From positions 37,423,626-37,487,625 of the forward strand of contig CM074516.1 in assembly GCA_037379345.1 (NCBI GenBank): a stretch of 64,000 nucleotides of DNA, read 5' to 3'. This document shows positions 1 through 63,000 of the stretch, in pieces. The first letter of the stretch is position 1; every line of letters starts with the position of its first letter. Origin of the DNA: Perna viridis. Its lineage: Eukaryota. The position numbers were made by a program.

Positions 1-3000
1 TGAGAGGACTGTTCATACAGATGTTCTGTTTGGTGTTGTGAAAAAGGCTCAAAGAGAAAGAAAGCATAAAGGTCTTAAGCAGATGAAGGTACTATTCATG
101 ACATAATCTGGGTTGCTTTTGTCCCACCAAGATCTTTGGGCTATAAATTTTTATCTATGCAATTGTAAGTTCCTGCATTGTATGACACCTAAACATTTAC
201 CACAAAATATTACCTAGGTCACCATATCATATAATCCAATAGGTTAAAATTAATGACATCAAAGTTTGACCTTTGTTATACAATAAAAAGGTGATGATTA
301 TTACTGAATATATATAATCTACTGGTATTGTATGATATATATTGCCCTTACAAGCTTGTCTAATATAAAATACTACTACAATATTACCAAAGTCTTCATG
401 CAATTAACCTGAATCATTAAAACTCACTTTAAACTTTGCTAAAAATCAACTGGATAGTTTGAACAAATTTCTAATCACATATTGAGACTGTAAAGTTGCA
501 CAAAATTTGGCAATGATTTAATATTTTTGCTTAAGGTTTTCAATATTGGCTCAGTTATTGGTCCAAGGCTAGCCATATTGGATTGAGGCATAGCATAATC
601 AATATGGAAAACCTTACACAATTATACTTTTATTGACTTACTAGTTCAGTACATCATAGTGGCCTAGGCCAACATGTATTTTAACCAAGCCAGTATGATG
701 TTTTGGACAAGTAAAGCTGTATTGGATGGCTAAGTCCTGTATTAGTGCACTTTAGAATTTTGTATTGTATTAGCAGTTATGATCATATGTCAATAATACA
801 TGTACCTGGTACATTTTTTTTGTATTTTGTTAATTTTGTTTGTAGATTATAGTGATGTCAGCCACAATGGATGTAGATCATTTTTCAAATTATTTCAACA
901 GAGCACCTGTGTTATACCTTGAAGGTAGACAGTACCCTGTTCAGGTAAGCAGCACCTTGATTATACCTCAATCTGATAGAAATTTTATAGCAAGGTAAGG
1001 GATTATATTCAAATGTAAAAGAAGAAAGGCAATCTGTAAAGGGAGATAATCCAATTCGGGAGATCTGACAAAAATCTGTCCTTTTACAAAATATAGCAAA
1101 TATTAAATTCAATTTTAATTTTTTGTATGTTATGATTAAACCTGTACTGAGTGCTCCTGTATATCTGTTACAGGTATACTACTCTACAACAAGTCAGTCT
1201 GACTATGTGATGGCAGCTGTGGTGACTCTTTTCCAGATACATAAAGAAAATCCTCCAAAGTAGGTTTGACGTCTTGATTTGGAACATTAGATAGGGTTTT
1301 ATACTTTTTTATAACCCTCAATGATGCTGTCTATCAGTCTGTTCATCCTTTTGTACACAGTCTTGTTAGTGTAGTTTCTCTTAATTGCTCAATGGATTTT
1401 TATGAAACTTCATAGAAAAATTAGAAGTTATATTTCAATGACGGAAGATAATTATTGTCTCAGGCCTGCACTAAAAGAGTTTTACCTGTTCTTATCTGCT
1501 GAATGTGACACTTCCTTAACTACTCAATATATTCTGAAAAAACTGCATATGAGTTAAGACATCAATTAAGGAATGACGGTTCAATTTTTTCGGTCTATGA
1601 GGAAATAACCTTGATCATATGGTGCACACTAAAAACCGGTGTAGCATGTTATATTTAAGTGGGCACCATGGGCATTGAGGTTATTGTAAATAGACCGAAA
1701 AAGTATTGCGGTCATTCCTTATAATTCAATATTAGTCAGGGATCTCCATGGATCAAAATGAACATATGGTTCACTCTTTGGTTGGACAGATTCATGTAGA
1801 AAATAACTTGCCAATGAAAGTATGAAAAGGTTGAATGAAACGTATGTAATAACACAAGCTACAACATAGAAATTAATAATCTACAATGGTAAATCTTTCT
1901 GTCTGTACCGTGTAACTCAATTGGACCAAGGTAAACTTTTTTCTTCCTTAGGCTCTAGAGAAATTAAAATCACTGTTAGGTTTGGTCATTTTGTTGATAC
2001 CATTAAAAAGTTCTTTATAATTTAACCACAAGAACTTTAATAGTCAAATGTTGTTTTTGTCTGAATCTGTGCCATTAAACAATATTTTTGAGTTTTTGGG
2101 AGTTGATCCATCACCCTTTCAAAAAAATTCAGCAAATTGGATTGCTTTTCTGTGTCAGATAAATGCTGAGATCGTTAAGACCATATTGTATAAATTAAAG
2201 ATCGTCTCCACCCCCCTCTCCGATCTTTCTCAAATTTAATTCAACTCTTGATATTTTCTATATTTTATTATATGAAAAGTTATCAAATTTTATTAATTAA
2301 ATAAAACAGTAGAAATCATTCAGCTTATTTCAATTTTGAAGATTTTGACGACAGTGATAATTGCGAATTTGGCCGATCTGAGATTTGTTTACACGTGTGT
2401 TTCACTGCCTGACACAATAACCCCCTGGAAATTACCAATCAAAATATCGTATAATTACCATTAGAATAAACACTAGTGCCAATCATATTGAATTATGACA
2501 GATATAGGTGATTAATAAGCACCGGTAATTGGGAAATACATTGCCAATTTGCAATGTGTGGTTCAAATTTTAATACATGGCACAAGGAAAGTAACACAAG
2601 TGCAATGCCATGCAAAAAGATGTCATGGAGAACCCGGGTAGTATCAAATTTTAAGGACTAAATCAGCCAAAAAGTTGATGACGTCACAGTCACATAACAA
2701 AATTTGGTTATGAGATGATGGACACAATTTTTTATCCAATCAGAAAGTGTGTTACATCTGAAATTAAATTATATGTAGATATACATATACTTGAAGGGAG
2801 ATAGTTTATATTGTTGGTTGCCTGTAAAGGGATATTGTGCAATATAAGGCTACATGCATTACATATTAGAAGTCCAAGTGAACAGAGGCATATCAATTTT
2901 GTGAGCATGCAAACATTTTTTTGTCATTGCCGTCTGATGTCTTTTTTATTTTTCTCTGATTATTGCATAAGACTTTCTGTTTCTTGGAAAAGTTCCAGAA

Positions 3001-60000: not shown

Positions 60001-63000
60001 TAGTGAGACCTTAGCCAGTCTGTTGTCAGACAAGGATGAGACATGTAGACATGTAACCTGCCCCTATAGCCAGTCTGTTGTCAGACTAGGATGAGACATG
60101 TACCCTGCCCTATAGCCAGCCTGTTGTCAGACTAGTATGAGACATGTAGACATGTACCCTGCCCCTATAGCCAATGTGTTGTCAGACTAGGATGAGACAT
60201 GTACCCCGCCCCTATAGCCAATCTGTTGTCAGACTAGGATGAGACATGTATCCTGCCCCTACTATAGCCAATCTGTTGTCAGACTAGGATGAGACATGTA
60301 CCCTGCCCCTACCATCGCCAGCCTGTTGTCAGACTAGGATGAGATGTGTACCCTGCCCCTATAGCCAGTCTGTTGTCAGACTAGGATGAGACATGTACCC
60401 TGCCCCTACTATAGCCAATCTGTTGTCAGACTAGGATGAGACATGTACCCTGCCCCTACCATCGCCAGTCTGTTGTCAGACTAGGATGAGACATGTACCC
60501 TGCCCCTATAGCCAGTCTGTTGTCTGACTAAGATGAGACATGTACCCTGCCCCTATAGCCGTCTGTTGTCAGCCTAGAATGAGACATGTACCCTGCCCTA
60601 TACCCAGCCTGTTATCTACAGGGGGAAAGGCATATATACATAACCTTAATACCTACCTGTTCCATTGCAATACCTAAGGTATACCCATGTATACCCTTAA
60701 TACAAGTTCCCATATAAGACCTAAGGATTACCCATGTATATGTATACCCTTATTTCTGTTCCCATGTAAGACTCAAGGATTACCCATGTACACTTTTATT
60801 TCTGTTCCCATGTAAGACTTAAGGATTACCCATGTACACCCTTATTTCTGTTCCCATATAAGACTTAAAGATTACCCATGTACACCCTTATTTCTGTTCC
60901 CATATAAGACAAAGGATTACCCATGTACACTTTTATTTCTGTTCCCATGTAAGACCTAAGGATTACCCATGTATATGTACACTCTTAATTCTGTTCCCAT
61001 GTAAGACCTAAGGATTACTCTTGTATATGCATACCTCTATTTCTGTTCCCATGTAAGACTTAAGGATTACTCATGTACACTCCTATTTCTGTTCCCATGT
61101 AAGTCTTAAGGATCACCCATGTACACTCTTATTTCTGTTCCCATGTAAGACTTAAGGATCACCCATGTACATCCTTATTTCAGTTCCCATGTAAGACCTA
61201 AGGATTACCCATGTACACTTTTATTTCTGTTCCCATGTAGGACTTAAGGATCACCCATGTGCACTCTTATTTCTGTTCCTATGTAAGACCTAAGGATTAC
61301 CCATGTATATGTACACTCTTATTTCTGTTCCCATGTAAGACCTAAGGATTACCCATGAATATGTATACCCTTATTTGTGTTCCCGTGTAAGATTTAAGGA
61401 TTACCCTTGTACACTTTTATTTCTGTTCCCATGTAAGACTTAAGGATCACTCATGTACACCCTTATTTCTGTTCCCATATAAGACTTAAGGATTACCCAT
61501 GTACACCCTTATTTCTGTTCCAATATAAGACTTAAGGATTACCCATGTACACCCGTATTTCTGTTTCCATGTAAGACTTAAGGATTACCCATGTACACCC
61601 TTATTTCTGTTTCCATGTAAGACTTAAGGATTACCCATGTACACTTTTATTTCTGTTCCCATGTGAGACTTAAGGATCACCCATGTACACTCTTATTTCT
61701 GTTCCCATGTAAGACCTAAGGATTACCCATGTATATAAACACTCTTAATTCTGTTCCCATGTAAGACCTAAGGATTACTCTTGTATATGCATATCTCTAT
61801 TTCTGTTCCCATGTAAGACTTAAGGATCACCCATGTGCACTCTTATTTCTGTTCCTATGTAATACCTAAGAATTACCCATGTATATGTACACTCTTATTT
61901 CTGTTCCCATGTAAGACCTAAGGATTACCCATGTATATGTATACCCTTATTTGTGTTCCCGTGTAAGATTTAAGAATTACCCATGTACACTCTTATTTCT
62001 TTTCCCATGTAAGACTTAAGGATTACTCATGTACATTCTTATTTCTGTTCCCATGTAAGACTTAAGGATTACCCATGTGCACTCTTATTTCTGTTCCCAT
62101 GTAAGACTTAAGGATCACCCATGTACATCCTTATTTCTGTTCCCATGTGAGACTTAAGGATCACCCATGTACACTTTTATTTCTGTTCCCATGTAAGACT
62201 TAAGGATCACCCATGTACACTCTTATTTCTGTTCCCATGTAAGACCTAAGGATTACCCATGTATATGTACACTCTTAATTCTGTTCCCATGTAAGACCTA
62301 AGGATTACTCTTGTATATGCATACCTCTATTTCTGTTCCCATGTAAGACTTAAGGATCACCTATGTACACTCTTATTTATGTTCCCATGTAAGACGTAAG
62401 GGAAGAATGTAAAGCATAATATCGGATCTTGAATAAAATAAAACTATGAAGACAAAAAAACAAAAATTATTATCCATTCTTAAAACCAAGGGTAGCCTTA
62501 TTTCTAGTTCCACAGTAAAGGATACCAAATTTTAGTTCATTACCTGTTCTAAGGTAAGACCAGGGGGTACCCATGTGTACCCTAATGATACTGTTTCCTC
62601 TTTTGTAGCACAATTAACAGGATCATCTAACCGTTTCCAACCAAGTCTGTCTCTAACATTTACAAAATTTAAGTTGTAGATGTCATGTAACTCCCGGGGA
62701 CATTTGCATATTTGACAAGTGTTTCTGGAAGAAAGAATAATATGGTTAAACACAAGGTGACCTACAAAAATCAAGATACATGTTTCAAAATGAAAACTTG
62801 CATTAATACACAACGTAGCTTGGTCAGCACTTTAAATAGTTGCAGTCCATGGAAAATGGCAAATACAAGTTTTATTTTCATACATATGAACAGAGTAGCA
62901 TAAAAACCATTGAATAGATAGATAATTGGAGTAGACCCTGCTTTATATGCTATTACACTCACACTAAGTATAATTAGTATGAACCCCCATCATGAGCTAC

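What the first reader, a model, noticed from the sequence alone, without database searches (positions are those of the whole stretch)
900..62590. Recurrent, polarised mechanism: intronic tandem repeats nucleate at exon 3' ends and expand downstream
Seen: four clear cases (exon ends 5896, 11313, 13601, 62544) and two weaker ones (944, 14959) among about 21 donors in the window. All expand into the downstream intron in the direction of transcription, on both strands. I saw none at acceptors. Inference: either a mutational process tied to donors (R-loops, Pol II pausing, exon nucleosomes or methylation), or a selective filter in which duplications spanning a donor are tolerated because the first donor still works. 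This could be a lineage-wide route to intron growth and new splice sites.
Basis: partly seen in the sequence, partly recalled or inferred. Interest (0 to 1): 0.7.

Follow-up and report, generated by a model that had tools for sequence, protein, structure and literature searches.

The report
Splice-donor-anchored minisatellites in mussel introns
In two mussel genes, several introns begin with tandem repeats copied from the end of the preceding exon and its splice site, a structure already known from a few human genes such as F7 but unusually frequent here.

Summary
The window holds a DEAH-box helicase gene (+), a PET/LIM 'prickle-3-like/testin-like' gene (-) and a one-exon GPCR. Best relatives are mytilid. 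I mapped 21 donors and 22 acceptors. The 46-nt satellite below donor 62544 is homologous to the last ~46 nt of that exon but starts 143 nt into the intron. Donor 14959 is weaker (array starts at +2). Donor 944 is not supported. No acceptor (0 of 22) shows the mirror image.

The downstream 'polarity' is not independent evidence: copies on the exon side would destroy the coding sequence. The zero at acceptors has no power, since about 0.28 were expected. The real excess is donors over random intronic positions: 0.27-0.31 donor-covering arrays expected, 3 seen (P about 0.003). This is post hoc and from one window.

The structure is a known kind: human F7, IFI6, CBS, LMNB2, PDGF and ABCA7 have minisatellites whose first unit spans or abuts a donor, and in F7 the most upstream donor is chosen. 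New members of a known kind. The lineage-wide hotspot claim stays untested.

The parts
5723..5896 (+). DEAH-box helicase exon; donor CAG|GTAGTC at 5896/5897
   Evidence: tblastn with P0002; boundary arithmetic
5872..6162 (+). 35-nt minisatellite, 8.3 copies. The first unit is the last 25 exon nt plus the first 10 intron nt. 5 of 7 downstream copies keep AG|GTAGTC; 2 have AT
   Evidence: TRF; sequence; copies in register; z=22
11209..11313 (+). Helicase exon; weak donor AAA|GTTAGT at 11313/11314
11269..12605 (+). 77-89-nt minisatellite with a 316-nt higher-order period, 16.5 copies. The first unit is about 45 exon nt plus about 44 intron nt. The next copy is 85/86 identical to it. Of 16 downstream copies, 6 full copies keep GT (GTTAGT or GTGAGT), 9 have ATGAGT and 1 is partial
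   Evidence: TRF; sequence; z=38.8
13401..13601 (+). Helicase exon; donor TCC|GTAAGT
13563..13744 (+). Decayed donor-spanning duplication: 13563-13631 (39 exon nt, the donor, about 30 intron nt) is repeated at 13680-13744. By eye only, a further partial copy may lie near 13629-13660
   Evidence: alignments; z=10.4; sequence. TRF did not report it
14850..14959 (+). Helicase exon; donor GAG|GTAGGT
14961..15168 (+). 69-nt x 3.0 array starting at intron base +2. Both later copies have T instead of G at the position homologous to +1. The unit end matches 10 of the last 15 exon nt
   Evidence: TRF; z=3.1, p=0.03
62544..62724 (-). PET-domain exon of the PET/LIM gene; donor CAG|GTAATG at 62544/62543. 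The exon tail carries a direct repeat, GGAAACAG...AGAACAG, about 47 nt apart
62402..62543 (-). 142-nt spacer between the exon and the satellite, with only a faint match to the unit (GGAACTAGAAATAAGG)
   Evidence: z=3.3, p=0.008
60657..62401 (-). 46-nt x 36.5 satellite whose unit aligns with exon tail 62598-62554. The donor GT is not kept in the units (CAG|AAATAAG)
   Evidence: TRF
58940..60613 (-). 47-nt x 34.8 satellite in the same intron, related to the 46-nt satellite. Together the two arrays make up 68% of this 4,995-nt intron
   Evidence: TRF; z=5.1
846..944 (+). No significant duplicate lies downstream; only a second donor-like AAG|GTAAGG 52 nt on
   Evidence: z=1.0; z=-0.3

Best explanation
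These are F7-type donor-anchored intronic minisatellites.

Origin (inferred). A short segment of 35-120 nt straddling an exon-intron junction was duplicated in tandem by ordinary replication slippage or unequal exchange. Short direct repeats flank the units by eye, for example TGAA..AAAT at 5896 and GAACAG at 62544. The copy number then drifted upward.

Tolerance (by analogy with human F7). The first copy stays joined to the exon, and its donor is the first one the spliceosome meets, so the mRNA is unchanged. Any use of a later copy reads into an in-frame stop 4-105 nt past the donor and would be removed by nonsense-mediated decay.

Polarity and the donor-acceptor asymmetry follow from this tolerance. 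Copies on the exon side break the coding sequence. At an acceptor, the correct copy would be the last one, not the first one met. The rule that the proximal copy of a duplicated site is used is cited for both kinds of site in PMC1557585's Discussion.

What is shown and what is inferred. Shown: the anatomy, the homology of units to exon tails, the mix of intact and dead decoy donors, and the in-frame stops. Inferred: the duplication mechanism, first-donor usage in this species, and NMD.

The cluster of 4-5 cases among 21 donors reflects a genome in which 14% of genic sequence is minisatellite, plus either sampling luck or a modest donor bias that one window cannot resolve.
For: - Units contain exon tail plus donor: 4 of 21 donors at z>7 against 0 of 22 acceptors.
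- Specificity: in 1032 array-by-junction comparisons, each of three arrays matched its own adjacent donor in the sense orientation, with one unrelated hit (score 30).
- The exon ends coincide with the ends of alignments to relatives' proteins, so the first copy is the coding one.
- Reading through each donor meets an in-frame stop at +4, +30, +105, +4 and +12 nt.
- Copy identities range from about 72% to 99%, so the events have different ages. At 11313 the first two units are 85/86 identical, showing recent turnover.
- Arrays make up 31-68% of the four affected introns, and 14% of genic bases lie in arrays.
- Precedent: F7, IFI6, CBS, LMNB2 and PDGF (PMC1557585, Introduction). [quoted passage not shown] The ABCA7 VNTR starts with the exon 18 donor GT (PMC5954066, passages).
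Against: - A tolerance filter cannot create an excess. Neutral births predict 0.27-0.31 donor-covering arrays and 3 are seen (P about 0.003); per donor, P(>=4 of 21)=0.002.
- No RNA data from this species, so first-donor usage and NMD are assumed.
- At 11313 the authentic donor AAA|GTTAGT is weaker than 5 downstream GTGAGT copies, which strains the 'first donor wins' rule. In F7, only pseudo-sites with a perfect match to the consensus competed with the first site.
- At 62544 the array is 143 nt from the exon and keeps no donor, so its origin at the junction needs an extra inferred step.
- The absence at acceptors has no statistical power.
Confidence: 0.6

Rival explanations
1. Donors are true mutational hotspots for minisatellite birth in this lineage, through some process tied to the 5' splice site or exon end (transcription-associated breaks, pausing, chromatin edge). 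Tolerance only decides what survives.
For: About a 10-fold excess over the uniform-birth expectation in this window (3 observed against 0.27-0.31 expected, P about 0.003; 4-5 of 21 donors against a 2.65% baseline, P=2e-3 to 2e-4). The events have different ages, and 4 of the 13 donors of one gene are affected. All the human examples found in the papers read are also at donors.
Against: One window, chosen after the fact. No shared sequence motif at the affected donors, and their U1 complementarity is ordinary: mean 6.4 of 9 against 6.6 for the other 16 (hand average of the list). Unit starts lie 15-55 nt inside the exon, not at the donor. Other arrays in the same genes sit anywhere in their introns, at relative positions of about 0.16-0.88 (hand calculation). 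No mechanism was tested.
Confidence: 0.25
2. The arrays are kept by positive selection. Reiterated exon tails or decoy donors would act as U1-binding or enhancer elements that help exon definition, or that protect AT-rich introns from premature cleavage.
For: 5 of 7 copies at 5896 and 6 of 16 at 11313 keep a usable GT donor. The introns are about 68% A+T.
Against: The donor motif is not clearly better kept than the rest of the unit: 6/63 against 25/182 mismatches. The GT is lost in 9 of 16 copies at 11313, in both later copies at 14959 and in the 62544 units. Donors with arrays are not weaker than the others.
Confidence: 0.08
3. Coincidence or artefact: unrelated intronic satellites (for example transposon-borne ones) that merely lie near exons, or mis-assembled repeats.
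For: Bivalve genomes carry many dispersed satellite-like arrays (PMC7492417, search listing only). The 62544 array is displaced from its exon, and one unrelated array-junction pair reached score 30.
Against: At 5896 and 11313 the repeat runs without a break out of the coding exon. Copies differ by 1-28%, which is not what collapsed or duplicated reads would give. Each matching array matches its own neighbouring donor in the sense orientation.
Confidence: 0.04

Closest known systems
Human F7 intron 7 37-bp VNTR, and the IFI6 (6-16), CBS IVS13, LMNB2 and PDGF intron 4 minisatellites listed with it (Borensztajn et al. 2006, PMC1557585; abstract, Introduction and Discussion read)
   Same: An intronic minisatellite whose first monomer spans the exon-intron boundary, so the donor is reiterated downstream. 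Unit sizes (37-100 bp) and copy numbers (5-25) are comparable. Decoy sites are intact in part of the copies.
   Different: Here the exon share of the unit is larger (25-55 nt against 4 nt in F7). Many copies have lost GT. Several such arrays occur in one gene. Usage of the first donor and length polymorphism are shown for F7 but untested here.
Human ABCA7 intron 18 25-bp VNTR (De Roeck et al. 2018, PMC5954066; passages read)
   Same: The array abuts the exon and begins with the donor GT. This is the closest match to the 14959 array, which starts at +2.
   Different: In ABCA7 one decoy is used at a low level and array length affects skipping of the next exon. No expression data exist here, and the later copies at 14959 have lost the homologous G.
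Intron gain by tandem duplication of an AGGT-containing exon segment (Hellsten et al. 2011, PMC3265369, and PeerJ 2016, PMC4974935; search listing and start of abstracts only)
   Same: A tandem duplication that reiterates splice-site sequence.
   Different: There the duplication lies inside an exon and creates a new intron. Here the introns already exist, with acceptors about 460-800 nt beyond the array ends at the three abutting arrays, and the arrays only lengthen them. No extra residues appear in the protein alignments.

Membership tests
F7-type donor-spanning intronic minisatellite | Head-to-tail tandem array lying in the intron directly downstream of an exon | tested here: met
   TRF arrays at 5872-6162, 11269-12587 and 14961-15168. 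13601 has only a decayed two-copy form. The 62544 array starts 143 nt into the intron.
F7-type donor-spanning intronic minisatellite | First monomer contains the last exon bases and the 5' splice site | tested here: met
   Met for 5896 (25 exon nt), 11313 (about 45) and 13601 (39). Marginal for 14959 (10 of 15 exon nt match). For 62544 the unit is homologous to the exon tail but the first array copy is not the exon copy.
F7-type donor-spanning intronic minisatellite | Donor sequence reiterated as pseudo-5' splice sites in the later monomers | tested here: met
   5 of 7 copies at 5896 and 6 of 16 at 11313 keep GT with the same or a better consensus. Not met at 14959 (0 of 2) or in the 62544 units.
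F7-type donor-spanning intronic minisatellite | Only (or mainly) the most upstream donor is used in mRNA | not testable with these tools
   No transcript data for this species. Indirect support only: relatives' proteins align up to exactly these exon ends, and read-through meets stops.
F7-type donor-spanning intronic minisatellite | Copy-number polymorphism (VNTR) | not testable with these tools
   Only a single assembly window is available. The 85/86 identity of the first two units at 11313 suggests recent turnover.
Intron gain by tandem duplication (AGGT model) | The duplication creates a new intron between duplicated splice motifs inside a formerly continuous exon | tested here: not met
   The arrays lie in introns whose flanking exons align contiguously to relatives' proteins, without added residues. 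Conservation of the intron positions in other genomes could not be checked.
Transposon-borne satellite-like arrays of bivalves (Helentron/Helitron-associated) | The unit belongs to a dispersed mobile-element family rather than to local sequence | tested here: not met
   For the junction arrays, the units derive from the adjacent exon tail. Dispersal across the genome could not be tested. The family itself is known to me only from a search listing.

The most novel reading that the evidence does not exclude
In mytilid, and perhaps other repeat-rich invertebrate, genomes the 5' splice site region may be a hotspot for minisatellite birth, about ten times above the neutral rate. A sizeable fraction of donors would then carry exon-tail arrays. 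This process would drive intron lengthening (31-68% of the affected introns here) and supply a standing pool of decoy or alternative donors.
Probability: 0.25. Interest if true: 0.65.

Novelty: new member of a known kind. Interest (0 to 1): 0.4.

Why it matters
If the density seen here holds genome-wide, mussels would offer many natural F7-like test cases. Even the neutral baseline of 1.35-2.65% per donor would imply a large number of them.

Such cases would serve three questions:
- How a spliceosome chooses among identical 5' splice sites outside mammals.
- How much minisatellite growth contributes to intron size.
- Whether splice sites bias structural mutation.

There is also a practical point. 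Such arrays are traps for gene predictors and for variant annotation at exon ends in repeat-rich genomes. If the density does not hold, this is an ordinary consequence of a very high minisatellite load plus the known tolerance of duplications that span a donor.

Tried and rejected
- Donor 944: no duplicate beyond an 8-mer.
- Acceptor-spanning arrays: 0 of 22. The two arrays that end 70 and 134 nt before acceptors 7555 and 14850 show no homology to those acceptors (z=-0.3 and -0.7).
- Control directions: donor segments against the upstream intron, 0 of 19 above z=2.0. Acceptor segments against the downstream intron, 1 of 20 at z=3.4 (33395-33374 against 33103-33082, 19/22 identical). Extending this to the whole 300-nt unit gave z=0.67, so it is chance.
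- Other arrays (4314, 7238, 8190, 14158, 19356, 44020, 58188): no homology to any of the 43 junction segments.
- Null model B, dropping whole arrays at random, gives 2.6 donors covered (P(>=3)=0.49). I rejected it as a model because arrays grow in place and cannot overlie exons. It does show that the conclusion depends on the null chosen.
- Decoy conservation: not clearly different (6/63 against 25/182 mismatches).
- Donor strength: no difference.
- Micro-exon search for the 7 extra residues of the Mytilus isoform: none found.
- Pfam on single exons gave nothing for the helicase and PET exons. Gene identity rests on the relatives' precomputed domain lists.
- Literature: no paper found on a donor-over-acceptor survey of tandem repeats, or on this structure in bivalves. 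PMC10078293 and PMC8096271 (passages only) do not treat it; their supplementary tables, which I could not open, might.
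Full report
What the window is.
The window has 64,000 bases, no N and about 32% G+C. Single-exon searches found close relatives. The first is a 671-aa DEAH-box helicase from unnamed transcript assemblies (P0001/P0002, 79-81% identity; Pfam PF00270, PF00271, PF04408, PF07717, PF21010). The second is 'prickle planar cell polarity protein 3-like' of Mytilus trossulus (P0006, 587 aa, PET plus LIM domains, 88-90% identity). 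The organism is therefore a bivalve close to Mytilus, not human. Which DHX paralogue the helicase is was not tested. Exon ends come from tblastn segments plus GT/AG and length arithmetic.

The map is:
- Helicase, + strand, 14 exons from the window start to 15707, giving 13 donors.
- A one-exon rhodopsin-type GPCR ORF at 17694-18788 (-) (Pfam 7tm_1, E=6.8e-22).
- The PET/LIM gene, - strand, 9 exons from 63281 down to 24371, giving 8 donors.

The observation.
TRF finds 12 sizeable arrays (period >=10, score >=80), of which 11 lie in the two genes. They cover 14% of genic bases. I compared each junction (last 45 exon nt plus 15 intron nt for donors, the mirror image for acceptors) with up to 1,500 nt of its own intron, using 200 shuffles.

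Donors:
- 5896: z=22.
- 11313: z=38.8.
- 13601: z=10.4.
- 62544: z=7.2.
- 14959: z=3.1 (p=0.03).
- 944: z=1.0.
- The other 15 donors: z<=1.5.

Acceptors: 0 of 22 exceed z=1.5.

Wrong-direction controls: donor segments against the upstream intron, 0 of 19 above z=2.0. Acceptor segments against the downstream intron, 1 of 20 at z=3.4; this did not extend (z=0.67).

In 1032 array-by-junction comparisons, each of three arrays matched its own neighbouring donor in the sense orientation. There was one unrelated hit, of score 30.

Anatomy of each case.
5896. The unit is AAAATACAGTTCCAGAAATACTCAG|GTAGTCAATG. There are seven further copies, 26-33 of 35 identical to the first. Five keep AG|GTAGTC and two have AT.

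11313. The first unit holds about 45 exon nt, the donor AAA|GTTAGT and a G-rich intron stretch. The next copy is 85/86 identical. Then follow two GTGAGT copies, nine ATGAGT copies organised in a 316-nt higher-order repeat, three GTGAGT copies up to 71/72 identical to the exon unit, and a partial one. Edge copies that resemble the selected, hence ancestral-like, exon copy, with a variant homogenised in the middle, fit ordinary unequal exchange. This reading is inference.

13601. The segment 13563-13631 recurs at 13680-13744 with TTTCT|GTA in place of TTTCC|GTA. It is an old, decayed event.

14959. Three 69-nt units start at +2. The later two have T at the position homologous to +1, and 10 of the 15 exon nt before the donor match the unit end.

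62544 (- strand). The 46-nt unit aligns with exon bases 62598-62554. The exon tail itself carries GGAAACAG...AGAACAG about 47 nt apart. A 142-nt spacer with only a faint match (z=3.3) separates exon and array. The neighbouring 47-nt array is a diverged relative (z=5.1). My reconstruction is a larger junction-spanning duplication followed by expansion of the exon-tail copy; this is inferred, not shown. The exon is the ancestral partner, because it aligns over its whole length to PET domains of many molluscs.

Arrays account for 36%, 62%, 31% and 68% of the four affected introns.

Is it more than chance?
The answer depends on the null model.

Whole arrays dropped at random. About 2.6 donors would be 'covered' (P(>=3)=0.49). 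Likewise 15% of all intronic 60-mers have a downstream copy, which looks like the 4 of 21 seen at donors. But arrays grow in place, and a functional donor can only sit in the first unit.

Births in collapsed coordinates. The fair null places array births uniformly after collapsing each array to one unit. It gives 0.27 expected donor hits (0.28-0.31 with a laxer TRF list) against 3 observed (5896, 11313, 14959), P=0.003-0.004.

Per-donor baseline. Adding the 1.3% base rate of non-array duplicates gives a baseline of 2.65% per donor. Then P(>=4 of 21)=0.002 and P(>=5)=0.0002.

The same null expects 0.28 acceptor hits, so zero has P=0.75. The donor-versus-acceptor contrast is weak (Fisher 0.048 or 0.021). 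All of these values are post hoc for one selected window.

How it most likely works.
The polarity is a logical necessity. In an array of [exon tail + donor + intron head] units only the first copy adjoins the exon body, and copies on the exon side would insert coding sequence.

Tolerance has a known basis. In human F7 IVS7, where a 37-bp VNTR's first monomer spans the exon 7 boundary, 50 constructs showed that the most upstream of identical 5' splice sites is selected. Downstream pseudo-sites are functional but silent unless they match the consensus perfectly (PMC1557585; abstract, Introduction and Discussion read). The same Discussion cites globin constructs in which only the proximal copy of duplicated donor or acceptor sites was used. 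For an acceptor-spanning array the first copy met would be the wrong one, which gives a mechanistic reason for an asymmetry. That last step is my inference.

In this window, read-through of each donor meets an in-frame stop at +4 to +105 nt. Decoy use would therefore produce NMD substrates.

I found no sign that the decoys are selected. Donor-motif columns differ as much as the others (6/63 against 25/182), GT is lost in many copies, and donors with arrays are of ordinary strength (mean 6.4 against 6.6 of 9 U1 matches, hand average).

One strain on the model remains. At 11313 the authentic GTTAGT donor is weaker than the downstream GTGAGT copies.

What stays open.
A filter cannot enrich. The roughly 10-fold excess at donors is either luck or ascertainment, or a real mutational bias. 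I could not test this. The only DNA collection open to search holds bacteria and archaea, the other two were closed, and there were no transcript or population data.

Comparison with what is known, and novelty.
Minisatellites whose first monomer spans an exon-intron boundary are described for F7, IFI6 (6-16), CBS, LMNB2 and PDGF. A VNTR beginning with the donor GT is described for ABCA7 (PMC5954066, passages). The arrays here meet the structural criteria of that class. Usage of the first donor and length polymorphism are untestable here.

They are not intron gains by tandem duplication, because the introns pre-exist (that literature was seen only as listings).

Seven searches found no survey of donor-versus-acceptor repeat overlap and no report of this structure in bivalves. 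Two human tandem-repeat surveys (passages only) do not address it; their supplements were not available to me.

Verdict: real, new members of a known kind, at a locally striking density.

Noticed in passing
window 17694-18788 (-): A 365-aa uninterrupted ORF of the rhodopsin-family GPCR type (Pfam 7tm_1, E=6.8e-22) lies between the helicase gene and the 3' end of the PET/LIM gene.
   Followed up: partly
window 19356-20922: A 40-nt x 38 array outside the mapped coding exons. On the + strand its unit reads like a pyrimidine tract plus TTTTAG|GCAG|GTGTTA, that is, acceptor-like and donor-like motifs 4 nt apart. It has no homology to any of the 43 junction segments of the window. Origin unexplained.
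   Followed up: partly
window 8190-9498: A very homogeneous 77-nt x 17 array (95% matches, strong G over C skew) fills much of helicase intron 7621-9831. It is unrelated to the flanking junctions.
   Followed up: partly
window 44850-45700 and 56400-57000 (+): Several diverged copies of one short element lie in the large PET/LIM intron, with another copy 11 kb away in a different intron of the same gene. Probably a dispersed mobile-element family; not identified.
   Followed up: partly
window 33207-25949 (-): The Mytilus trossulus isoform P0006 has 7 residues (DEKLGTE) between the exons that end at 33207 and start at 25949. No matching micro-exon was found by pattern search in the 7.3-kb intron. 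This may be an isoform or lineage difference.
   Followed up: partly
window 33395-33374 vs 33103-33082 (-): A 22-nt acceptor-like stretch (intron end plus the first 8 exon nt) recurs 19/22 identical 292 nt downstream, beyond the exon's donor. The similarity does not extend (z=0.67), so it is probably chance.
   Followed up: yes
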